Assembly: GCA_963796265.1 (NCBI GenBank)
Contig: CAWCLA010000004.1
Coordinates: 5,873 to 69,872, forward strand
Origin: an uncultured Actinomycetes bacterium
Lineage (GTDB): Bacteria > Actinomycetota > Thermoleophilia > Gaiellales > Gaiellaceae
Reading direction: 5' to 3'
DNA: 64,000 bases
The notes beneath the pieces were generated by a model, which was not told the DNA's origin, did no database searches, and worked only from the letters and a program-made list of their open reading frames with translations. This document shows, piece by piece, positions 44,477 to 60,290 of the stretch. Positions within the stretch are counted from its first letter, which is position 1, and the number at the start of each line of letters is the position of its first letter. The position numbers were made by a program, and so were the translations under genes.

Positions 44477-46654
44477 GTGGCAGTTGTGGGGGACCCGATC
44501 GCAGCGCGCCGCGGGCGCCTTGGGCTGCTCGTTGGCGTCGTCCTGGCGCTCCTGGCGCTCTTGTCAGCGGGCGCATCGAGCGCCGCGACCAGCCGCGCGC
44601 AGGGTCTCGACGTCTCGAACTGGAACGGGACGATCAAATGGTCGAAGGTCGCCGGCGCCGGCTACAGCTTCGCGTTCGGCAAGGCGACGGAGGGCACGAC
44701 CTTCACCGACGCGACGTACACGACGAACCGGAACGGCAGCGAGAACGCGGGGCTCGCCTTCGGCGCGTACCACTTCGCGCGACCCGGGGGCAAGAGCATT
44801 GCCGCCGCCACCCGGAGCGCGATCGCGCAGGCAAACCACTTCCTCGCCGTCGCCGCGCCGCAGCCGGGGGAGCTGCCACCGGTGCTCGACCTCGAGACGA
44901 CGGGAAAGCTCAGCAAGGCCAGGCTTCTGACCTGGACGCTCGCGTGGCTCCAGCAGATCTACGCCAGGACGGGCGTCGAGCCCTTCCTCTACACCTCGCC
45001 GAACTTCTGGAAGGAGAATCTCGGTAACTCCACGGCCGCAGCACAGGCTGGAACCGAGCTCTGGATCGCGCACTGGACGAGTGCCGCACAGCCGACCGTT
45101 CCGGCCCAGAACTGGGACGGAGACGGCTGGACGTTCTGGCAGTGGACGAACTGCCTCTCGGTCCCCGGGATCAAGCACTGTGCCGACGGCGACAGGATGA
45201 ACGGCACGAACCTCGCCCCCGTCGTCATCGAGCCGTACCCGACCGGCCCTCCCCTCCTCTCGGCGCCGCCCACGCTCGTCGGGCCGCCGGAGGCGGGCCA
45301 GCTGCTCGCCGCCGTGCCCGGCACGTGGGAAGGCGGCAAGCCGATCCAGTTCACGTACCAGTGGCGCAGCTGCGACGCGGCCGGCGCCAACTGCACGGCG
45401 ATCTCGGGCGCGACCGCCGAGTCGTACCGGCCCGCGAGCACCGACGTCGGGCACTCGCTCCAGGTCGCTGTGACCGCCGTCTCCAGTGCCGGGAGCGCGA
45501 GCACCGCCACGGCCCCGACCGTCGCGGTCACCCCTGCCGGCACTCCGCCGACCGCCCGGCCGGCCAACCTCGCGCCGCCGACGATCCTCGGTACGGCCCA
45601 GGCCGGACAGCGTCTGAGCGCGAACGCCGGGACGTGGACGGGCTCACCGCAGCAGTTCGCCTACCACTGGCGCCGCTGCGACGCCGGGGGCGCCTCCTGC
45701 GTCGCGATCCCGCACGCGAGGCAGTCGCACCACACGCTCACCCCCGACGACATCGGCGCCACGCTCTCGCTCGTCGTGACGGCCACCGGCACAGGCGGCT
45801 CCGCATCCGTGACCACCGCGGCGACCGACGTGGTCGTCGCCGCGCCTTTGCCGCCGATCTCGACCGGGACGCAGACGGTGACCCGCGGCATCGCGGGGAA
45901 CCTCCAGACCGACGACGGACGCGCCGTCGTCACCTGGCAGCCGGGCGCCGTTCCCGTGGGGAAGACCGTTTCGCTCGACGCCTTCAGCGGCACCCTCACC
46001 CTGCCGGGGAGCGAGGTGTCGCTCACCGTGCCGGGGTTGTCGTCGAAGGGGTTCAAGTGGCCTCTCGACCTCACGTACGTGCAGCCGCAGCCGAGCCGGA
46101 CGGTGCTCGGCTACTCGACCGACGGCAAGGTCTACCACCCGGTGCCGGCACTCAACCCGCCGGAGCTTCCGGCGGGGACGGCCGTCGGCTGGTACGTGGA
46201 CACGGGCAACCTCACGCATGTGCTCACGCGGACGCCGCTCCAGCTCGCCCTGTTCACGCGAGGTGCCTGGGGCGACCCGAGGTACACGTCGGCGAACGGG
46301 CCGAAGCTCAAGACCCGGAGGCCGCTCGAGGTTCTCCCCCACCCGGCCGACCACAGCCTCCTCCTGCTGACGAGGCTCTCGGTGGCCACGCAGGCTCGGC
46401 TCTCGGCGTCGGTGACCGGCCGGGGCCGAAGGGTCGTCGGGATCTTCGGGAAGGGCAGCCGGCTCGGCCCGCGCCTGCGCGCCGGGCGCGGCTACCACGT
46501 CGCGCGCACCTACCGCCCACGGCCCGGCATCCTCATCGTGCGCCTCCGCCTCAACGCGCGTGGCTGGCGGCCGGGCACCTACAGGGTTCGCTTCGTGGCG
46601 ATCGATCCGTGGGGCCGGCGCGGCCGCCTGGCCCTGCGGTTCCGCTACCCCTGA
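44477..46654 (+). CDS. Secreted GH25 muramidase with two Ig-like repeats and a large Arg-rich C-terminal region
   Basis: Signal peptide, then GLDVSNWNGTIKWSKV..FAFGKATEG..GAYHFARP (GH25). Two copies of PP(T)(L/I)xG..G..L.A..GTW.G..Q.F.Y.WR.CDA.GA.C.AI. Confidence 0.85.
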   Translation: MAVVGDPIAARRGRLGLLVGVVLALLALLSAGASSAATSRAQGLDVSNWNGTIKWSKVAGAGYSFAFGKATEGTTFTDATYTTNRNGSENAGLAFGAYHFARPGGKSIAAATRSAIAQANHFLAVAAPQPGELPPVLDLETTGKLSKARLLTWTLAWLQQIYARTGVEPFLYTSPNFWKENLGNSTAAAQAGTELWIAHWTSAAQPTVPAQNWDGDGWTFWQWTNCLSVPGIKHCADGDRMNGTNLAPVVIEPYPTGPPLLSAPPTLVGPPEAGQLLAAVPGTWEGGKPIQFTYQWRSCDAAGANCTAISGATAESYRPASTDVGHSLQVAVTAVSSAGSASTATAPTVAVTPAGTPPTARPANLAPPTILGTAQAGQRLSANAGTWTGSPQQFAYHWRRCDAGGASCVAIPHARQSHHTLTPDDIGATLSLVVTATGTGGSASVTTAATDVVVAAPLPPISTGTQTVTRGIAGNLQTDDGRAVVTWQPGAVPVGKTVSLDAFSGTLTLPGSEVSLTVPGLSSKGFKWPLDLTYVQPQPSRTVLGYSTDGKVYHPVPALNPPELPAGTAVGWYVDTGNLTHVLTRTPLQLALFTRGAWGDPRYTSANGPKLKTRRPLEVLPHPADHSLLLLTRLSVATQARLSASVTGRGRRVVGIFGKGSRLGPRLRAGRGYHVARTYRPRPGILIVRLRLNARGWRPGTYRVRFVAIDPWGRRGRLALRFRYP

Positions 46655-47604
46655 GACCGGGACAGGGCCCTCAGGCTGAGCAGCTCGTAGGCGACGTTCG
46701 CGGCCGCGAGCGCCGTCTGCTGGCCCGGCCCGTCGTACGGCGGCGAGACCTCCACGACATCCGCGCCCGCGAGCTCGATCCCCCCCAGTGCCCGCAGGAA
46801 GGAGAGCGCTTCCGCCGTCGACAGGCCGCCGACCTCCGGCGTGCCCGTGCCGGGCGCGAAGGCCGGGTCGAGCACGTCGACATCGAAGGAGATGAAGACG
46901 GGGCGTGCGCCGGCACGCTCGCGGACGAGAGAGGCGTAGCCACCCGGCCCCTGGATCCGCAGCCCGTCGCACGACAGGACCGCGAAGCCGAGAGCGCGCG
47001 CCGACTCGAGGTCCTCGGCACCGTAGAGCGAGCCGCGCAGGCCGGCCTGCACCGACGCCGCCGGCTCGATGAGCCCCTCCTCCAGCGCCCGCTTGAACGT
47101 CGTGCCGTGGAAGAAGCGCTGGCCGAAGTACTCGTCCCACGTGTCGCCGTGGGCGTCGAGCTGGACGAGGGCGAGCGGCCCGTGCCGGCGCGCCAGAACG
47201 CGCAGCTCGGGGAGCGTGACCGAGTGGTCGCCGCCGAGCGCGAGCGGGAAGACGCCGGCGTCGACGAGCGGCGCGAGCGCCTCCTCCACCTGCCCGTAGG
47301 TGCGCTCGGTGTCGCCGGGCGACACGGGAAGGTCGCCGTAGTCGACGATGGAGAGAGTCTCGACGACGTTCACGTCGAGCGCCGGGTTGTACGGCCGGAG
47401 CAGCGCCGACGCGGAGCGGATCGCCTCGGGGCCGAAGCGCGGCCCGGTGCGATAGCTCGTCGCGGTGTCGAACGGGATGCCGTAGACGGCCGCATCGACG
47501 CCGGCGAGCTCCCGCGTGTGCGGCGCGCGCATGAACGTCCGGATTCCCGCGAAGCGCGGCATGACCTGCGCATCGAGCGGCCTGTGGTGCGGCGGGGCCG
47601 GCAC
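46645..47604 (-). CDS. speB: Agmatinase / guanidino-acid hydrolase (ureohydrolase family)
   Basis: GGDHSVT, LDAHGDT, SFDVDVLDPAFAPGTGTPE and GADVVEVSP. I chose the GTG at 47604 because homology (PLDAQVMPRFAGI) extends upstream of the first ATG. Confidence 0.88.
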   Translation of the reverse strand: MPAPPHHRPLDAQVMPRFAGIRTFMRAPHTRELAGVDAAVYGIPFDTATSYRTGPRFGPEAIRSASALLRPYNPALDVNVVETLSIVDYGDLPVSPGDTERTYGQVEEALAPLVDAGVFPLALGGDHSVTLPELRVLARRHGPLALVQLDAHGDTWDEYFGQRFFHGTTFKRALEEGLIEPAASVQAGLRGSLYGAEDLESARALGFAVLSCDGLRIQGPGGYASLVRERAGARPVFISFDVDVLDPAFAPGTGTPEVGGLSTAEALSFLRALGGIELAGADVVEVSPPYDGPGQQTALAAANVAYELLSLRALSRSQG

Positions 47605-47615
47605 GCTCGCCGGCG

Positions 47616-49127
47616 CTACCGCGTCTGCGGGAAGCCGAGGTCGACCCGCGAGGTGGCCGGATCGGGCCAGCGTGACGTGACGACCTTGCCGCGTGTGTAG
47701 AAGTCGATCGCCTCCGGCCCGTACACATGGCGGTCGCCGAAGAGCGACGACTTCCAGCCGCCGAACGAGTAGTACGCCACCGGCACGGGGATCGGGACAT
47801 TGATCCCGACCATCCCCGCCTGCACGTCGAACTGGAACTGCCGCGCCGCGCCGCCGTCGCGCGTGAAGATCGCCACCCCGTTGCCGTACGGGCTCCCGTT
47901 CACGAGCCGCACGGCCTCCTCGTAGGTCGCGACGCGCGTCACGCCGAGCACCGGGCCGAAGATCTCGTCGACATATGCCTTCATCGCGGGCGTCACGCCG
48001 TCGAGGAGGCTCGGGTTGAGGAAGAAGCCCTCGCCGGGCACGCCCTCGCGGCCGTCGACGACGACCGTGGCGCCCTCGGCCGGCGCATTCTCGACGTACG
48101 AGGCGACCCGGTCGCGATGCTCGCGCGTCACGAGGGGCCCCATCTCGGAGGACGGGTCCATCCCGTCGCCGACCCTCACTTTCGGGATTCGCTCCCGGAT
48201 CGCGTCGACGAGCGGCTGCGCGACGTCGCCCACGGCGACGACGACCGAGACGGCCATGCACCGTTCGCCCGCCGAGCCGTAGCCCGCCGAGACGGCCGCG
48301 TCGGCAGCGGCGGCGACGTCGGCGTCGGGCAGGACGATCATGTGGTTCTTCGCGCCGCCGAGCGCCTGGCAGCGCTTGCCGCTCGCGGTCGCCTTCTCGT
48401 ACACGTAGCGGGCGATGGGCGTCGAGCCGACGAACGAGATCGCGGCGACGTCCGGCTGCTCGAGGAGCGCGTCGACGGCGACGCGGTCGCCCATGATCAC
48501 GTTGAAGACGCCGTCGGGCAGGCCGGCCTCGCTCAGCAGCTCGGCGACCCAGAGCGAGGGCGACGGATCCTTCTCCGACGGCTTGAGGATGAAGCAGTTG
48601 CCGCACGCGATCGCCGGCGCCCACATCCACATGGGCACCATCGCGGGGAAGTTGAACGGCGTGATTCCGGCGACGACTCCAAGTGGCTGCCGGATCGAGT
48701 AGACGTCGATCCCCGTGGACGCCTGCTCGGAGTGCTCACCCTTGAGCAGGTTCGGGATGCCGCAGCAGTGTTCGACGACCTCGAGCCCGCGCGTCACCTC
48801 GCCGAGCGCGTCCGAGAACACCTTGCCGTGCTCGCGGACGAGGATCGCGGCGACTTCCTCGCGCCGCGCATGGAGCAGCTCGCGGATGCGGAAGAAGAGC
48901 TCCGCCCGCTTCGCGAGCGAGGTCTGGCGCCAGCCGGGGAAGGCGGCCCGTGCGGCCCGGACGGCCGCGTCGACCTCCTCGACGGTGGCGAAGTCGACGG
49001 CGCCGGTCTGGCGGCCGGTCGCGGGGTTGTAGACCGGGCCGCTGCGGCCGGAGCCGCCGTCGACGCGCCGCCCGCCGATCCAGTGCGGGATGCGGGTGGC
49101 GGTGGGTGCGTCGACCGTCTCGGTCAT
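47616..49127 (-). CDS. mmsA: CoA-acylating methylmalonate-semialdehyde dehydrogenase
   Basis: 503 aa from the internal ATG: ITPFNFPAMVPMWMW, GGAKNHM, GERCMA, VNVPIPVP-like INVPIPVPVAYYSFGGWK. Confidence 0.92.
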   Translation of the reverse strand: MTETVDAPTATRIPHWIGGRRVDGGSGRSGPVYNPATGRQTGAVDFATVEEVDAAVRAARAAFPGWRQTSLAKRAELFFRIRELLHARREEVAAILVREHGKVFSDALGEVTRGLEVVEHCCGIPNLLKGEHSEQASTGIDVYSIRQPLGVVAGITPFNFPAMVPMWMWAPAIACGNCFILKPSEKDPSPSLWVAELLSEAGLPDGVFNVIMGDRVAVDALLEQPDVAAISFVGSTPIARYVYEKATASGKRCQALGGAKNHMIVLPDADVAAAADAAVSAGYGSAGERCMAVSVVVAVGDVAQPLVDAIRERIPKVRVGDGMDPSSEMGPLVTREHRDRVASYVENAPAEGATVVVDGREGVPGEGFFLNPSLLDGVTPAMKAYVDEIFGPVLGVTRVATYEEAVRLVNGSPYGNGVAIFTRDGGAARQFQFDVQAGMVGINVPIPVPVAYYSFGGWKSSLFGDRHVYGPEAIDFYTRGKVVTSRWPDPATSRVDLGFPQTR

Positions 49128-49145
49128 GCTGACTAGCCTAACCGC

Positions 49146-49913
49146 GTGTCCGATCTCGTGGACTTCGTCGAGGCGCCGGGCCGCTTCATGGCGCCGACGC
49201 CCGGCGCGCTCGTCGTGCAGACGCCCCGCTTCGTGGTCGTCGCGGGAGCGGACGGCGTGTGGGCGTCGGTGCAGGGAGTCCGCCTGCGCGACGGCGAGGC
49301 GCCCGACGCCGTGGCGGAGGTGCGCGAGCTCCTCGCCCCCGCCGGCACGCGGGTCGTCAGCTGGTGGCTGAGCGACCGGGCGACCCCGGAGGACGTCGAG
49401 CAGCAGCTGCTCGCTGCCGGGCTCGAGCTCGTTGCCGACGACTACCTGCTCGACGGGCTCCTCGCGACGTCGCCTCCGCCGGCAGGCCCTCCCGACGTCG
49501 AGGTGCGACCTGCGACGACGGCCGCGGAGTGGGCCGCCCTGCGGGAGCTCCAGGACGGCGTGTTCGACAACCCACCCGAGCGCAGGGCGACGCGCGAGCA
49601 GCTCCTCGCGGAGTTCGGGCGCACGAGCGCCGTCCTCTTCGGCGCGTGGCTCGAGGGCGAGCTCGCCGGAGCCGGCGCCGCGACCCCTAGCAGCCGCGGG
49701 ATGCTCCTCTGGGGCGGGGCGGTGCGCGAGGACGCTCGCGGGCGCGGCTGCTACCGGGCGCTCGTCCGCGCCCGCTGGGACGACGCAGTCCGGCGCGGCA
49801 CACCCGCGCTGACCGTCAGCGCGAACGACCGGTCCGGCCCGCCGCTCCGCAAGCTCGGCTTCGAGCAGGTGCTCCGGTTCCGTCGGATCGAGGACGTACG
49901 CTCCGAGACGTGA
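49146..49913 (+). CDS. GNAT-family acetyltransferase (tentative)
   Basis: C-terminal half AVLFGAWLEGELAGAGA..GGAVREDARGRGCYRALVRARW..KLGFE (the motif A region RGRG). Confidence 0.6.
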   Translation: MSDLVDFVEAPGRFMAPTPGALVVQTPRFVVVAGADGVWASVQGVRLRDGEAPDAVAEVRELLAPAGTRVVSWWLSDRATPEDVEQQLLAAGLELVADDYLLDGLLATSPPPAGPPDVEVRPATTAAEWAALRELQDGVFDNPPERRATREQLLAEFGRTSAVLFGAWLEGELAGAGAATPSSRGMLLWGGAVREDARGRGCYRALVRARWDDAVRRGTPALTVSANDRSGPPLRKLGFEQVLRFRRIEDVRSET

Positions 49914-56776: not shown

Positions 56777-56800
56777 GGGGGCCCGCTCTCGCGGGCCCCT
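56777..56800. terminator. Bidirectional terminator hairpin between convergent genes
   Basis: GGGGCCCGC-TCTC-GCGGGCCCC followed by TATT. Confidence 0.6.
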
Positions 56801-56964: not shown

Positions 56965-57897
56965 TCACGGATCCGGAGCGACGGCTGCCGGCAGGCGGCT
57001 CGCACGCACGCGCGTGCCGGCGCGTCCGGCCGCAACGTCCGCGAGATCCGACAGGGCGCCGATCATCGCCTCGCCGCCCGTGCGCTCGACGAAGCGGCAG
57101 GCGGCCTCGACCTTCGGCGCCATCGACCCCGAGGCGAACTCGAGCCGCCGCAGCTCGGCGGGTGTCGTGTGCTCGATGGGCGAAGCCTGCGGCGTCCGCC
57201 AGCCGCGCTCGACGTGCGCAACGTCGGTGAGGATGACGAGCCGGTCGGCGTGGAGCTCTTCGGCGAGGAGCGCGGCGGTCAGGTCCTTGTCGATGACCGC
57301 CTCGACGCCGCGCAGCCGGTTGCCCTCGCGCACGACCGGGATTCCTCCGCCGCCGGCACAGACGACGATCGAGCCCCGCTCGAGCAGCGTCTCGACCGCC
57401 TCGAGCTCGACGATGTCGAGCGGTTGCGGCGACGGAACGACGCGGCGGAAGTGCGGGCCGTCGGGTGCCACGTCCCAGCCGTGCTCGGTAGCGGCGAGGC
57501 GTGCCTCGGCCGCCGAGTACACGGGCCCGATCGGCTTCGTCGGCCGCGCGAACGCCGGGTCGTCCGGGTCGACGGCGACTTCGCTCAGCAGCGCGACGAC
57601 GCTCACGTCCGTCTCGGCCCGCAGCGCCTGCACGATGAGATAGCCGATCATCCCCTGGCTCTCGGCGCCGAGGACGTCGAGCGGATACGGCTTCACGGCG
57701 TGGTAGGCCTCCGCCTCGAGCGCGAGCAGCCCCACCTGGGGGCCGTTGCCGTGCGTGACGACCAACTCGTTGCCCTCTGCTAGCCGCGCGAGCGTCGCGG
57801 CGGCGGCCGCGACATTGCGCCGCTGCGTCTCGGCCTCGGCAGGCTCACCCCGCCGGAGCAGGGCATTGCCCCCGAGCGCTACGACGATTCGATCCAC
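56965..57897 (-). CDS. arcC: Carbamate kinase
   Basis: RIVVALGGNALL, VVTHGNGPQVG, VCAGGGGIPV, AVIDKDL and GSMAPKVEA. The GTG start lies 19 nt inside the OTC gene. Confidence 0.9.
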   Translation of the reverse strand: MDRIVVALGGNALLRRGEPAEAETQRRNVAAAAATLARLAEGNELVVTHGNGPQVGLLALEAEAYHAVKPYPLDVLGAESQGMIGYLIVQALRAETDVSVVALLSEVAVDPDDPAFARPTKPIGPVYSAAEARLAATEHGWDVAPDGPHFRRVVPSPQPLDIVELEAVETLLERGSIVVCAGGGGIPVVREGNRLRGVEAVIDKDLTAALLAEELHADRLVILTDVAHVERGWRTPQASPIEHTTPAELRRLEFASGSMAPKVEAACRFVERTGGEAMIGALSDLADVAAGRAGTRVRASRLPAAVAPDP

Positions 57898-58841
57898 GGC
57901 TCGAAACCGTGCGTGAGTGCGAGCAGGAGGGCGGCCTCGGTCGGCATCCGGTTCGCCGACTGCGCCCAGACCGCCGACTGCGGCCCGTCGATGACGGCCG
58001 AGTCCACCTCCTCGCCGCGCTTGGCCGGCAGGCAGTGGAGGAAGATCGCGTCCGGCCGCGCCAGCGCCATGAGCTCCTCCGTCACCTCGTACGGCGCGAG
58101 GATCCGAGCGCGCGCGTCGTGCTCGGCTTCCTCGCCCATCGACGCCCACACGTCCGCGTAGACCGCGTCCGCGCCGGCGATCGCCTCGCGTGGATCCTCG
58201 ACGACCGACAGCGTCGCCCCCGTCGAGCGGGCTAGCTCGCGCGCCTCGCCGAGGATCGCCGGGCTCGGCCCGTACTCGGGCGGGCACGCGATCGCGACGT
58301 CGAGACCGGACAGAGCGCCCGCCTCGAGCAGGGAGTGCGCGACGTTGTCGCCGCCGTCGCCGAGGAAGGCGAGCCGGCGGCCCTCCAGCGCGCCGAAGGC
58401 CTCCCGGATCGTCAGCAGGTCGGCGAGCGCCTGGCACGGATGATGCGCGTCGGAGAGGGCGTTCACGACGGGCACCGTCGCCCAGGCGGCGAGCTCGTCC
58501 ACCGTCTGCTGCGCGAACGTGCGGATGACGATCGCGGCGCAGTAGCCGGACAGCGAGCGGGCGGTGTCGGCGATCGACTCGCCACGCCCGAGTTGGAGCT
58601 CCTGCGGCGAGAGCGAGACCGGCGTCGCGCCCAGCTCCGCCGCAGCGGCCGCGAAGGAGACACGCGTGCGCGTGGAGGGCTTTTCGAAGATGCAGGCGAT
58701 CGTGCGTCCGTGCAGCGCCCCCTCGTACCGCGCGGGCTCGCCCTTCAGGACCGTCGCGAGCTGGAGCAGCCGCACGAGCTCGACCGGGCTGAGGTCCGCT
58801 ACCCGGGTGAAGTGCCGCGTCTTCGTCGCGACGCCCATCAC
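57879..58841 (-). CDS. argF: Ornithine carbamoyltransferase (the anabolic versus catabolic role is not decidable from sequence)
   Basis: KPSTRTR, HPCQALAD, DVWASMG and FLHCLPA. The GTG/ATG start overlaps the upstream stop (GTGATG). Confidence 0.92.
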   Translation of the reverse strand: MMGVATKTRHFTRVADLSPVELVRLLQLATVLKGEPARYEGALHGRTIACIFEKPSTRTRVSFAAAAAELGATPVSLSPQELQLGRGESIADTARSLSGYCAAIVIRTFAQQTVDELAAWATVPVVNALSDAHHPCQALADLLTIREAFGALEGRRLAFLGDGGDNVAHSLLEAGALSGLDVAIACPPEYGPSPAILGEARELARSTGATLSVVEDPREAIAGADAVYADVWASMGEEAEHDARARILAPYEVTEELMALARPDAIFLHCLPAKRGEEVDSAVIDGPQSAVWAQSANRMPTEAALLLALTHGFEPWIESS

Positions 58842-60172
58842 GCAACCACCGGCTCCGCCACCTTCGCCAGGACCGGCGCGAGGACGTCCGCGACGGTCGG
58901 GCGCCCGAGCTCCTCGAGCTCGTACCGGACGTGGCGGAGCGGGTGCCGCGACTCGATCAGGCGACCGAGGTCGATCGGCGTGCCGGTCACCACCACGTCG
59001 CAGTCGACGGCATTGATCGTCTCCTCGAGCTCACGGAGCTGTGCGTCGGAGTACCCCATGGCCGGCAGCACGTTCGTCAGCTGCGGCCACCGTGCGAACA
59101 CCTCCCGTAGCGAGCCGACCGCGTAAGGCCGCGGATCGACGATGCGCGCGGCTCCCGCCCGGCGGGCCGCGACCAGGCCGGCGCCGAAGGGCATCTCGCC
59201 GTGCGTGAGTGTCGGCCCGTCGTCGACGACGAGCACCGTCTTGCCGCGCAGGTCGGGGCCCTCGTCGAGCACCGGCGGCGACTTCGCGAAGACGAGCTGC
59301 GCGAGCGGATTGGCCTCCTGCACGTTCCGGACGACCGTCTCGACGTCGTCCGCGGCTGCCGAGTCGACCTTGTTGAGCACGACGACGTCGGCGAGCCGGA
59401 GGTTCGTCTCCCCCGGGTGGTAGCGGAGCTCGTGGCCCGGGCGCAGCGGGTCGACGACGACGAGCATCAGATCCGGCTTGTAGAACGGGAAGTCGTTGTT
59501 GCCGCCGTCCCAGACGATGACGTCTGCCTCGCCCTCCGCCTGGCGCAGGATCGCCTCGTAGTCGACGCCTGCGTACATGGTCATCCCGAGGCGCACGGGC
59601 TCCTCGTACTCCTCGCGTTCCTCGACCGTCGGATGCGAGGCGTCGATGTCCTCGAGGGTCGCGAACCGCTGCACGCGCATCGCCTCGAGGTCGCCGTAGG
59701 GCATCGGGTGCCGCACGAGCGCGACGCGCAGACCCGCGTCGAGCAGGGCGCGTCCGACCGCGCGGCTCGTCTGGCTCTTGCCGCACCCGGTGCGGACGGC
59801 GCAGACGGCGACGACCGGCTTCGACGAGTGGAGCATCGTGGCCCCGGGGCCGAGGAGCCGGAAGTCGGCGCCGGACGCGAGCACGAGCGACGCCTTGTGC
59901 ATGACCGTCTCGTGCTTGAGGTCCGAGTAGGCGAGGATCACCTCGTCGACGCCGTGCTCGCGGACGAGCTCGGCGAGCTCCTCCTCGGGGCGGATCGGGA
60001 TCCCGTCCGGATAGAGCGGTCCCGCGAGCGCGGGCGGGTAGACCCTGTCCGCGATGCCGGGGATCTGCGTCGCGGTGAAGGCGACGACCTGGGTGTCGGG
60101 GTCGTGGCGGAAGACGACGTTGAAGTCGTGGAAGTCGCGTCCGCCGGCTCCCATGATGACGACCTTGCGCAC
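58838..60172 (-). CDS. P-loop GTPase-like protein of the cyclic-2,3-diphosphoglycerate-synthetase-like family (COG2403-type)
   Basis: Walker A AVRTGCGKSQT and NKxD motif VVLNKVD, in a 444-aa protein. GTG start 6 nt after AAAGGAG. Confidence 0.8.
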   Translation of the reverse strand: MRKVVIMGAGGRDFHDFNVVFRHDPDTQVVAFTATQIPGIADRVYPPALAGPLYPDGIPIRPEEELAELVREHGVDEVILAYSDLKHETVMHKASLVLASGADFRLLGPGATMLHSSKPVVAVCAVRTGCGKSQTSRAVGRALLDAGLRVALVRHPMPYGDLEAMRVQRFATLEDIDASHPTVEEREEYEEPVRLGMTMYAGVDYEAILRQAEGEADVIVWDGGNNDFPFYKPDLMLVVVDPLRPGHELRYHPGETNLRLADVVVLNKVDSAAADDVETVVRNVQEANPLAQLVFAKSPPVLDEGPDLRGKTVLVVDDGPTLTHGEMPFGAGLVAARRAGAARIVDPRPYAVGSLREVFARWPQLTNVLPAMGYSDAQLRELEETINAVDCDVVVTGTPIDLGRLIESRHPLRHVRYELEELGRPTVADVLAPVLAKVAEPVVA

Positions 60173-60290
60173 GGTGAGCTCCTTTCGGCGCCGGCCAGAA
60201 CCGGTCTGGACGCAGGATCGCCCGCACCCGTGCGCACGACTTCCGCGAAAACGCCCGCGGCAGCCGCGGCGAACTACCGATCCCGCCGGA

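What the first reader, a model, noticed from the sequence alone, without database searches (positions are those of the whole stretch)
56965..60172. Arc-like operon led by a cDPG-synthetase-like NKxD GTPase instead of arginine deiminase
Three genes are chained by overlaps. The GTPase stop and the OTC start form GTGATG. The carbamate kinase start lies 19 nt inside the OTC gene.

OTC plus carbamate kinase is the ATP-yielding half of the arginine deiminase pathway, but no arcA or arcD is present in the window. The leading gene instead has a Walker A motif (AVRTGCGKSQT) and an NKVD guanine-specificity motif. Its overall length is typical of the archaeal cyclic-2,3-diphosphoglycerate-synthetase-like or 'predicted GTPase' family, which has no established function in bacteria.

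Tight coupling implies matched stoichiometry with the carbamoyl-phosphate enzymes. It could be a chaperone, a metallo-insertase or a phosphoryl-transfer partner, or it could form part of a different citrulline or carbamoyl-compound catabolic route.
Basis: partly seen in the sequence, partly recalled or inferred. Interest (0 to 1): 0.6.

Follow-up and report, generated by a model that had tools for sequence, protein, structure and literature searches.

The report
Arginine synthetase (ArcE) pathway operon
The "mystery GTPase" in front of ornithine carbamoyltransferase and carbamate kinase is a bacterial copy of arginine synthetase (ArcE), an enzyme described in 2024 that replaces arginine deiminase and earns an extra ATP, so this is a recognisable, already published kind of arginine pathway.

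Summary
Three minus-strand genes overlap by 4 (or 1) and 19 nt: a 444-aa P-loop protein, a true ornithine carbamoyltransferase (OTC) and a carbamate kinase (CK).

The P-loop protein is 60% identical, without a gap over 430 residues, to Thermococcus kodakarensis TK2200 (BAD86389.1). That protein is ArcE, "arginine synthetase": Arg + ADP + Pi <-> Cit + NH3 + ATP (Michimori et al., PNAS 2024, PMC11032458). The operon is therefore arcE-arcB-arcC, the published arginine synthetase pathway.

The chaperone and GTPase ideas are superseded, because TkArcE prefers ADP.

- **Host genome.** It is a Gaiellaceae genome with no match to arcA, aguA, argG, argC or ArgJ, and argH only below cut-off. It has one OTC and one CK, but does have CarB.
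- **Family survey.** Across 41 Gaiellaceae genera, CK accompanies ArcE in 21 of 24 genomes, against 1 of 17 without ArcE. Ten of 11 high-quality genomes without argG carry ArcE.
- **Reading.** The pathway most likely breaks down arginine for 2 ATP and ornithine in an arginine auxotroph. Salvage synthesis is the rival.

This is a new member of a known kind, of low interest. This scan has noted ArcE on other DNA 26 times.

The parts
58838..60172 (-). arcE: arginine synthetase (ATP-forming arginine deiminase) ortholog, 444 aa; deviant Walker A AVRTGCGKS (125-133), WDGGNND (221-227), NKVD (267-270)
   Evidence: It is 60% identical to T. kodakarensis ArcE (BAD86389.1) over 430 residues with no gaps. 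The AF2 model has pLDDT 91.9, and its best PDB folds are cDPGS and LpxK. There is no Pfam or NCBIfam model beyond a marginal CobW hit.
57879..58841 (-). arcB/argF: ornithine carbamoyltransferase, 320 aa, short ArgF-type; the only OTC in the genome
   Evidence: NF001986 scores 383.7 bits (cut-off 306) and TIGR00658 scores 362.7 (cut-off 280.85). The PTC, AOTC, ATC and YgeW models all fall below their cut-offs. Motifs STRTR 56, HPCQ 134, DVWASMG 230 and HCLP 269 are present. The genome has only one other OTCace-domain gene, which sits next to carB.
56965..57897 (-). arcC: carbamate kinase, 310 aa; the only CK in the genome
   Evidence: NF009008 scores 445.4 bits (cut-off 361) and TIGR00746 scores 390 (cut-off 358). 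The best PDB hit is CK 8crv at E 1e-103. There is a single copy in the genome.
60179..60186 (-). Shine-Dalgarno-like GAAAGGAG, 6 nt before the arcE GTG
   Evidence: Read directly from the sequence. It is conserved in relatives L002, L016 and L017.
56778..56799 (-). Terminator-like GC hairpin (9-bp stem) followed by CUUUCUCG, 165 nt after the CK stop; shared with the convergent tRNA_edit gene
   Evidence: strand folding gives -30.7 kcal/mol, z = -3.4, and 0 of 200 shuffles fold as well. The simple terminator scan did not call it.

Best explanation
The three genes are an arcE-arcB-arcC operon, that is, the 'arginine synthetase pathway'.

- **ArcE**, the P-loop protein, converts L-arginine + ADP + Pi to L-citrulline + NH3 + ATP. 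The reaction is reversible.
- **OTC** phosphorolyses citrulline to ornithine + carbamoyl phosphate.
- **CK** transfers the carbamoyl-phosphate phosphoryl group to ADP.

Arginine thus gives ornithine + CO2 + 2 NH3 + 2 ATP, one ATP more than the arginine deiminase pathway. The overlapping stop and start codons point to translational coupling of the three enzymes.

This Gaiellaceae genome shows no acetyl-ornithine route and no argininosuccinate route. The operon therefore most likely runs in the breakdown direction on imported arginine, yielding ATP and ornithine.

What is shown: orthology of each gene, operon conservation, and gene content of the genome and its family. What is inferred: the enzyme activity of this particular protein, taken from its 60%-identical characterised ortholog, and the physiological direction. 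The confidence given is for the identity of the operon as an ArcE pathway; the breakdown direction alone I put at about 0.65.
For: **Identity of the P-loop protein**
- G015 is a single contig of 2,088,737 bp. It has one strong homolog of the window protein, at 1,983,770-1,985,062.
- That exact 448-aa sequence is BAD86389.1 / WP_011251150.1 of T. kodakarensis KOD1. UniRef names it 'Arginine synthetase ArcE'.
- BLASTP of the window protein against it gives 60% identity, 77% positives and no gaps over 430 residues.
- 55 of 62 Thermococcus genomes show a near-full-length match at 58-61% identity. Five more show only fragments of it, and two show only weak matches.
- Alignment A5, 35 sequences from both domains of life, has about 100 invariant columns. 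They include the P-loop GxGKS, WDGGNND and the K of NKxD.
- The biochemistry and genetics of TK2200 are in PMC11032458.
- The fold matches what that paper reports: cDPGS first and LpxK 4EHY next.

**The other two genes**
- OTC and CK pass curated cut-offs.

**Pathway context**
- The genome has no arcA and no aguA.
- OTC and/or CK lie within 6 kb of arcE in 25 of 80 loci from many phyla.
- A natural fusion of a CK-like amino-acid kinase domain with ArcE exists (P0130).
- Within Gaiellaceae, CK is present in 21 of 24 ArcE-positive genomes and 1 of 17 ArcE-negative ones.

**Direction**
- argG, argC and ArgJ gave no match in G000, and argH gave only sub-cut-off hits.
- The same four searches found nothing in 10 high-quality relatives that nonetheless keep arcE.
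- CK is not needed for synthesis, because CarB is present.
Against: - No bacterial ArcE has been assayed in the literature I could search; only three papers mention ArcE.
- The window protein sits in an Actinomycetota clade with 100/100 support. That clade is separate from the one holding the characterised enzyme, so a shift in substrate or nucleotide preference cannot be excluded.
- The NKxD motif is conserved, although TkArcE prefers ADP.
- The genome is scored only 75.8% complete, so absences are not proof. A single-contig 2.40-Mb relative that scores 80% shows the same absences.
- No arginine/ornithine transporter was identified near the operon.
- The ArcE reaction is close to equilibrium (deltaG0' -6.8 kJ/mol). 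Direction is therefore set by metabolite levels, not by the enzyme.
Confidence: 0.88

Rival explanations
1. Same enzymes, opposite direction. In this lineage, which lacks the arg genes, ArcE is the arginine-forming step. Ornithine, taken up or made from proline or glutamate semialdehyde, plus carbamoyl phosphate from CarAB gives citrulline through the sole OTC. ArcE then adds free ammonia at the cost of one ATP, replacing argininosuccinate synthetase and lyase.
For: - TkArcE is reversible and supports growth on citrulline + NH4+. The authors raise a biosynthetic role for organisms that have CPS, OTC and ArcE but no ASS/ASL.
- G000 has CarB, a single OTC of the short ArgF type whose nearest solved relatives include M. 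tuberculosis ArgF, and no argG or argH.
- Among high-quality Gaiellaceae genomes, 10 of 11 without argG have ArcE, against 4 of 12 with argG. So 22 of 23 have at least one citrulline-to-arginine route.
- In G065, G082 and G096, which have both the arg genes and arcE, the only OTC found at the E <= 1e-50 threshold used lies beside arcE. That OTC would then also have to work in the synthetic direction.
- OCD-family genes and several class-III aminotransferase genes could supply ornithine.
Against: - argC and ArgJ are missing too, so there is no standard source of ornithine.
- CK is superfluous for synthesis when CarAB is present. Yet it is translationally coupled in the operon and co-inherited with ArcE in 21 of 24 genomes.
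- TkArcE needs millimolar free NH3 (Ks 3.7 mM).
- The genera without arg genes may be one or a few clades, so the complementary pattern may reflect few events.
Confidence: 0.18
2. The P-loop protein is a GTPase accessory factor for OTC/CK, acting as a chaperone, metal insertase or assembly factor, and is not an enzyme of the pathway.
For: - There is a weak CobW/HypB/UreG Pfam hit (21.3 bits against a 20.7 cut-off) and an NKxD motif.
- HypB, UreG and MinD appear among lower-ranking fold matches.
Against: - The 60%-identical ortholog is a stand-alone enzyme acting on arginine/citrulline, and it prefers ADP.
- OTC and CK are metal-independent enzymes with no known maturation factor; this rests on established knowledge of those families.
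- 55 of 80 homologous loci have neither OTC nor CK nearby, as expected of an enzyme rather than a dedicated partner.
Confidence: 0.02
3. The database label is right: the gene encodes cyclic 2,3-diphosphoglycerate synthetase.
For: - NCBI names many homologs this way.
- cDPGS is the top fold match.
Against: - Sequence similarity to solved cDPGS is marginal: E 1e-5 over about 100 residues, and about 15% identity in the structural alignment.
- The T. kodakarensis protein carrying the same NCBI label is the experimentally characterised ArcE.
- cDPG is a thermoprotectant of hyperthermophilic methanogens, which is not expected in a soil actinobacterium; this rests on established knowledge.
Confidence: 0.01

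Closest known systems
Arginine synthetase pathway of Thermococcus kodakarensis: ArcE (TK2200), ArcB (TK0871), ArcC (TK2158); Michimori, Yokooji and Atomi, PNAS 2024 (PMC11032458); Michimori et al., Front Microbiol 2026 (PMC13260591)
   Same: - ArcE is 60% identical and gapless, with the same length, motifs and predicted fold.
- The partner enzymes are the same.
- The genome likewise lacks arcA, argG and argH.
- The OTC is of the same short type as the Pyrococcus OTC.
   Different: - Here the three genes form one translationally coupled operon. In T. kodakarensis they are scattered.
- The host is a high-GC member of the family Gaiellaceae (Actinomycetota), not an anaerobic hyperthermophile.
- This genome has CarB, so the pathway is not needed as the source of carbamoyl phosphate, unlike in T. 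kodakarensis.
- The window ArcE belongs to a separate, Actinomycetota-dominated clade.
Arginine deiminase pathway (arcABC, with arcD)
   Same: - The two downstream enzymes, OTC and CK, are the same, as is the overall conversion of arginine to ornithine, CO2 and 2 NH3.
- The layout is operonic.
   Different: - The first step is not the hydrolytic ADI (PF02274, not found in the genome).
- It is an unrelated P-loop enzyme that conserves the deimination energy as ATP.
- No arcD antiporter gene is adjacent.
Cyclic 2,3-diphosphoglycerate synthetase (Methanothermus fervidus, PDB 8ORK/8ORU) and LpxK (PDB 4EHY)
   Same: - These are the best solved-structure matches to the model (E 1e-17 and 1e-9).
- All are P-loop kinase/ligase folds that use ATP/ADP.
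   Different: - Identity is about 13-15%.
- The substrates differ.
- The family is a distant outgroup, not the family of the window protein.

Membership tests
ArcE arginine synthetase (TK2200 family) | Full-length sequence homology to the characterised enzyme TK2200 | tested here: met
   60% identity, 77% positives and 0 gaps over 430 of 444 residues. The T. kodakarensis sequence was identified by exact look-up as BAD86389.1, 'Arginine synthetase ArcE'.
ArcE arginine synthetase (TK2200 family) | Orthology rather than distant paralogy: one strong match per genome, clearly separate from the cDPGS-like paralog | tested here: met
   55 of 62 Thermococcus genomes give one near-full-length hit at E about 1e-175 or better. 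Any second hit is only E 1e-4 to 1e-9. G000 itself has a single copy.
ArcE arginine synthetase (TK2200 family) | Family-invariant residues (P-loop TGxGKS, RHPMPY, EEREEYE, WDGGNND, NKxD, DGPTxTHG) | tested here: met
   All are present in the window protein and in TkArcE. Which of them are catalytic has not been established experimentally.
ArcE arginine synthetase (TK2200 family) | Predicted fold resembling LpxK (4EHY) and cDPGS, as reported for TK2200 | tested here: met
   The AF2 model has pLDDT 91.9 and pTM 0.89. Foldseek ranks 8ORU and 8ORK first and 4EHY third.
ArcE arginine synthetase (TK2200 family) | Genomic association with arcB/arcC, and complementarity with arcA | tested here: met
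   The gene is in an operon with both. No PF02274 gene was found in the genome. 25 of 80 homologous loci have OTC and/or CK within 6 kb. CK co-occurs with ArcE in 21 of 24 Gaiellaceae genomes.
ArcE arginine synthetase (TK2200 family) | Catalysis of Arg + ADP + Pi <-> Cit + NH3 + ATP | not testable with these tools
   This needs the purified protein. It has been shown only for TK2200 (PMC11032458).
Ornithine carbamoyltransferase | Curated model score and ornithine-specific motifs (STRTR, HPxQ, DxxxSMG, HCLP) | tested here: met
   NF001986 and TIGR00658 score above their cut-offs. The putrescine-, acetylornithine-, aspartate- and YgeW-type models score below theirs. The motifs were found.
Carbamate kinase | Curated model score | tested here: met
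   NF009008 scores 445 against a cut-off of 361, and TIGR00746 scores 390 against 358. PDB CK 8crv matches at E 1e-103.
Arginine deiminase (arcABC) pathway | Presence of arcA (ADI, PF02274) | tested here: not met
   There is no match in the window's genome.
Cyclic 2,3-diphosphoglycerate synthetase | Close sequence similarity to the characterised cDPGS | tested here: not met
   The best match is E 1e-5 over about 100 residues, with 14-15% identity in the structural alignment.
Guanine-nucleotide-specific GTPase | NKxD motif that confers GTP/GDP preference | tested here: inconclusive
   The motif is present (NKVD 267-270). However, the ortholog with NKID uses ADP best, and GDP gives 8.4% of that activity. 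Nucleotide preference of the window protein was not tested.

The most novel reading that the evidence does not exclude
About half of the Gaiellaceae genera, this genome included, show no argC, ArgJ, argG or argH. In these, ArcE together with the single OTC and CarAB could be the only arginine-forming route, a salvage or alternative biosynthesis from ornithine or citrulline plus free ammonia. That would make this the first bacterial lineage in which arginine synthetase has replaced argininosuccinate synthetase and lyase.
Probability: 0.17. Interest if true: 0.55.

Novelty: new member of a known kind. Interest (0 to 1): 0.2.

Why it matters
The finding matters chiefly as an annotation correction. 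Public databases still label this family 'GTPase', 'predicted GTPase' or 'cyclic 2,3-diphosphoglycerate synthase'. As a result, arginine-fermenting or arginine-salvaging capacity is invisible in genome-based metabolic models of Gaiellales, an abundant and rarely cultured group of soil actinobacteria.

Read correctly, the operon predicts that these organisms gain 2 ATP per arginine. It also predicts that many of them are arginine auxotrophs, or else depend on ArcE for arginine, which bears on designing media to cultivate them.

It does not reveal a new kind of system.

Tried and rejected
**Searches that found nothing or failed**
- Literature searches for 'COG2403' and for cDPG synthetase together with carbamate kinase found nothing.
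- NCBIfam has no model for the protein, and Pfam gives only a marginal CobW hit.
- An exact look-up of the window protein's own contigs found nothing.
- A 24-sequence alignment was too diverse for the search for related loci.
- A supplement look-up for the PNAS paper returned no files.

**Reaching T. kodakarensis**
- Two scans of genome contigs with bacterial and archaeal ArcE alignments did not return Thermococcus among the best 80 loci.
- Naming ten distant representatives did not reach Thermococcus either.
- I got there indirectly. The P. furiosus CK sequence, read from a PDB alignment, fetched Thermococcus loci. Their genomes and genus were then searched.

**Local sequence features**
- Promoter and terminator consensus scans found nothing in this high-GC region.
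- Rfam found nothing.
- An alignment of upstream regions showed no conserved operator beyond the ribosome-binding site.

**Ideas rejected**
- The arginase-family gene 9 kb away was considered as an alternative arginine route. It scores as agmatinase, not arginase.
- The chaperone/metallo-insertase and cDPG synthetase readings were rejected; the reasons are given under the rival explanations.
Full report
**1. The observation**

Three minus-strand ORFs lie at the stated coordinates.
- The P-loop protein is 444 aa (58838-60172) and starts at GTG, 6 nt after GAAAGGAG.
- The second ORF is 320 aa (57879-58841).
- The third is 310 aa (56965-57897).

The first stop and the second start share GTGATG. 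That is a 4-nt overlap from GTG, or 1 nt from ATG. The third gene's GTG lies 19 nt inside the second gene.

A 9-bp GC hairpin followed by CUUUCUCG lies 165 nt after the last stop (-30.7 kcal/mol, z = -3.4).

The flanking genes are unrelated to arginine. Upstream are an ABC-2 permease and a DUF5995 gene. Downstream are a convergent YbaK-like tRNA_edit gene, then HSP20, a HAD hydrolase and a methyltransferase.

In two relatives whose ArcE is 93% and 86-87% identical, the same three genes recur with the same kind of overlaps while the flanks differ.

**2. The two downstream genes**

The second protein passes the curated NCBIfam cut-offs for ornithine carbamoyltransferase: NF001986 at 383.7 against 306, and TIGR00658 at 362.7 against 280.85. 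It falls well below the cut-offs for putrescine, N-acetylornithine, aspartate and YgeW carbamoyltransferases. It carries STRTR, HPCQ, DVWASMG and HCLP.

Its nearest solved relatives are the short ArgF-type enzymes of M. tuberculosis and P. furiosus.

The third protein passes the carbamate kinase cut-offs and matches PDB CK 8crv at E 1e-103.

**3. The leading gene**

Pfam gives only a marginal CobW/HypB/UreG hit and NCBIfam gives nothing. By sequence against the PDB, the only hits are cDPG synthetases, at E 1e-5 over about 100 residues.

Homologs are very numerous. Sources name them 'predicted GTPase' or 'cyclic 2,3-diphosphoglycerate synthase', and the closest are from Gaiellaceae.

A literature search then found Michimori, Yokooji and Atomi (PNAS 2024, PMC11032458). 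They started from the same puzzle: OTC and CK present but no arcA. They identified T. kodakarensis TK2200, a hypothetical protein whose homologs are annotated 'putative GTPase' and which is weakly similar to cDPG synthase. It is 'arginine synthetase' (ArcE), and it catalyses Arg + ADP + Pi <-> Cit + NH3 + ATP.
- Keq is about 10 at 80 deg C.
- ADP is preferred; GDP gives 8.4% of the ADP activity.
- The enzyme is specific for L-arginine and uses free ammonia.

They named ArcE-ArcB-ArcC the arginine synthetase pathway, and noted homologs in many bacteria, including Actinomycetota.

**4. Testing membership directly**

I needed the T. kodakarensis sequence. I read the P. furiosus CK sequence from a PDB alignment and used it to fetch Thermococcus loci. 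I then searched their genomes and the whole genus with the window protein.
- All 62 Thermococcus genomes matched.
- 55 gave a near-full-length hit at 58-61% identity, E 1e-175 to 1e-182.
- Five gave only fragments.
- Two gave only weak matches.
- About 40 genomes showed in addition a weak second match, probably a paralog, at E 1e-4 to 1e-9.

One genome is a single contig of 2,088,737 bp with the hit at 1.984 Mb. An exact look-up of its 448-aa product returned BAD86389.1 / WP_011251150.1 of T. kodakarensis KOD1. UniRef names it 'Arginine synthetase ArcE', while NCBI still calls it 'cyclic 2,3-diphosphoglycerate synthase'.

BLASTP of the window protein against it gives 60% identity, 77% positives and no gap over 430 residues.

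An alignment of 35 bacterial and archaeal members has about 100 invariant columns.

An AlphaFold2 model (pLDDT 91.9) finds cDPGS (8ORU/8ORK, E 1e-17, about 15% identity) and LpxK 4EHY (E 1e-9) as best folds. SIMIBI-class NTPases follow. This is the same picture the authors report for TK2200. I therefore file the gene as an ArcE ortholog.

**5. Neighbourhood and co-occurrence**

Among 80 homologous loci from many phyla, 25 have OTC and/or CK within 6 kb, and 10 have both. These come from Actinomycetota, Acidobacteriota/Aminicenantes, Bacillota, Caldisericota, KSB1 and some Chloroflexota. Most Anaerolineae have neither.

One metagenomic protein fuses an N-terminal amino-acid-kinase (CK-like) domain to ArcE.

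Across 41 Gaiellaceae genera, ArcE is found in 24. CK is present in 21 of those 24 and in 1 of the 17 without ArcE. The genes are adjacent in nearly all of them.

**6. The host genome and the likely direction**

The 2.69-Mb genome (4 contigs, scored 75.8% complete) shows the following.
- No ADI-family gene and no agmatine deiminase.
- One OTC, plus one other carbamoyltransferase gene next to carB.
- One CK.
- A full-length CarB.
- No argG, argH only below cut-off, no argC and no ArgJ.

In the family, argG, argH, argC and ArgJ are largely present or absent together, each in roughly half of the genera. Where present they are clustered.

A single-contig 2.40-Mb relative that scores only 80% complete shows the same absences but has arcE-arcC-arcB. 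The completeness score therefore underestimates in this lineage, and the absences are probably real.

Among genomes at least 90% complete, the counts are as follows.

| argG | arcE | genomes |
|---|---|---|
| absent | present | 10 |
| present | present | 4 |
| present | absent | 8 |
| absent | absent | 1 |

Related genomes are not independent, so I attach no statistic to these counts.

My reading is that these organisms are arginine auxotrophs. They would break arginine down through ArcE, OTC and CK for 2 ATP, ammonia and ornithine. Ornithine cyclodeaminase-family genes and several class-III aminotransferases could carry ornithine onward; that last step is inference.

The tight linkage of CK favours breakdown, because CK is useless for synthesis when CarAB is present.

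The rival reading is salvage synthesis of arginine from ornithine or citrulline. It is not excluded, because ArcE is reversible. In three genomes that have both the arg genes and arcE, the only OTC found at the threshold used is the one beside arcE. I put the rival at about 0.18.

**7. Comparison with the known, and novelty**

This is the published arginine synthetase pathway. It differs from the T. kodakarensis case in four ways.
- The genes form one coupled operon.
- The host is a high-GC actinobacterium.
- A canonical CPS is present.
- The ArcE belongs to an Actinomycetota-dominated clade with 100/100 support.

No bacterial ArcE has been assayed in the literature I could search. Earlier notes of this scan record ArcE on other DNA 26 times. 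I reached the same reading independently and tested it here.

Verdict: a new member of a known kind, of low interest. Its practical value is in correcting a widespread mis-annotation.

Noticed in passing
L274-L281 (Gaiellaceae genomes G069, G073, G075, G078, G090, G096, G101) compared with window 56965-60172: Two distinct versions of the operon coexist in one bacterial family. Type 1 is the window's: arcE-arcB-arcC, with ArcE 71-93% identical. Type 2 is arcE-arcC-arcB, with ArcE 58-62%, OTC 47-52% and CK 46-49% identical to the window's. In the ArcE tree they fall in different 100/100-supported clades, and genome G075 carries both. This suggests separate acquisitions of the arcE-containing gene sets.
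   Followed up: partly
P0130 (766-aa metagenomic protein): A natural fusion of an N-terminal amino-acid-kinase (carbamate-kinase-like) domain with a C-terminal ArcE domain. It is a Rosetta-stone link between the first and last enzymes of the pathway. P0133 and P0143, about 650 aa each, also have N-terminal extensions, but these show no Pfam match.
   Followed up: partly
Thermococcus genomes G003-G062: About 40 of the 62 Thermococcus genomes also carry a second, very distant homolog of about 445 aa (E 1e-4 to 1e-9, 25-32% identity over residues 205-320). It may be a separate cDPGS-like family of unknown role.
   Followed up: no
window 46645-47580 (-) and 47616-49151 (-): A ureohydrolase that scores as agmatinase (NF002564 at 308.5 against a cut-off of 302; the arginase model falls far below its cut-off) lies next to an aldehyde dehydrogenase of the methylmalonate-semialdehyde dehydrogenase type. 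The same pair lies near the operon in the 93%-identical relative L002. With no agmatine deiminase and no obvious arginine decarboxylase checked, its substrate (agmatine or a guanidino acid) is open.
   Followed up: partly
G077:C6:13887-14934: In one Gaiellaceae genome the ArcE match is split and contains an in-frame TGA, so it is probably a pseudogene. That genome has the arg genes but no CK.
   Followed up: no
G065, G082, G096: In three Gaiellaceae genomes that have both the arg biosynthesis genes and arcE, the only OTC gene found at the E <= 1e-50 threshold used lies beside arcE, not with the arg genes. If so, one OTC must serve both synthesis and breakdown.
   Followed up: no
G069 (single contig, 2,399,073 bp): A single-contig Gaiellaceae genome is scored only 80% complete. 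Marker-based completeness therefore seems to underestimate in this lineage, which affects how absences in G000 (75.8%) should be read.
   Followed up: no
L256:10-465 (T. kodakarensis, about 2.5 kb from arcE): A carbamoyltransferase-like match (35% identity to the window OTC over 153 residues, cut by the end of the locus) lies near arcE in T. kodakarensis. It may be an aspartate carbamoyltransferase gene.
   Followed up: no
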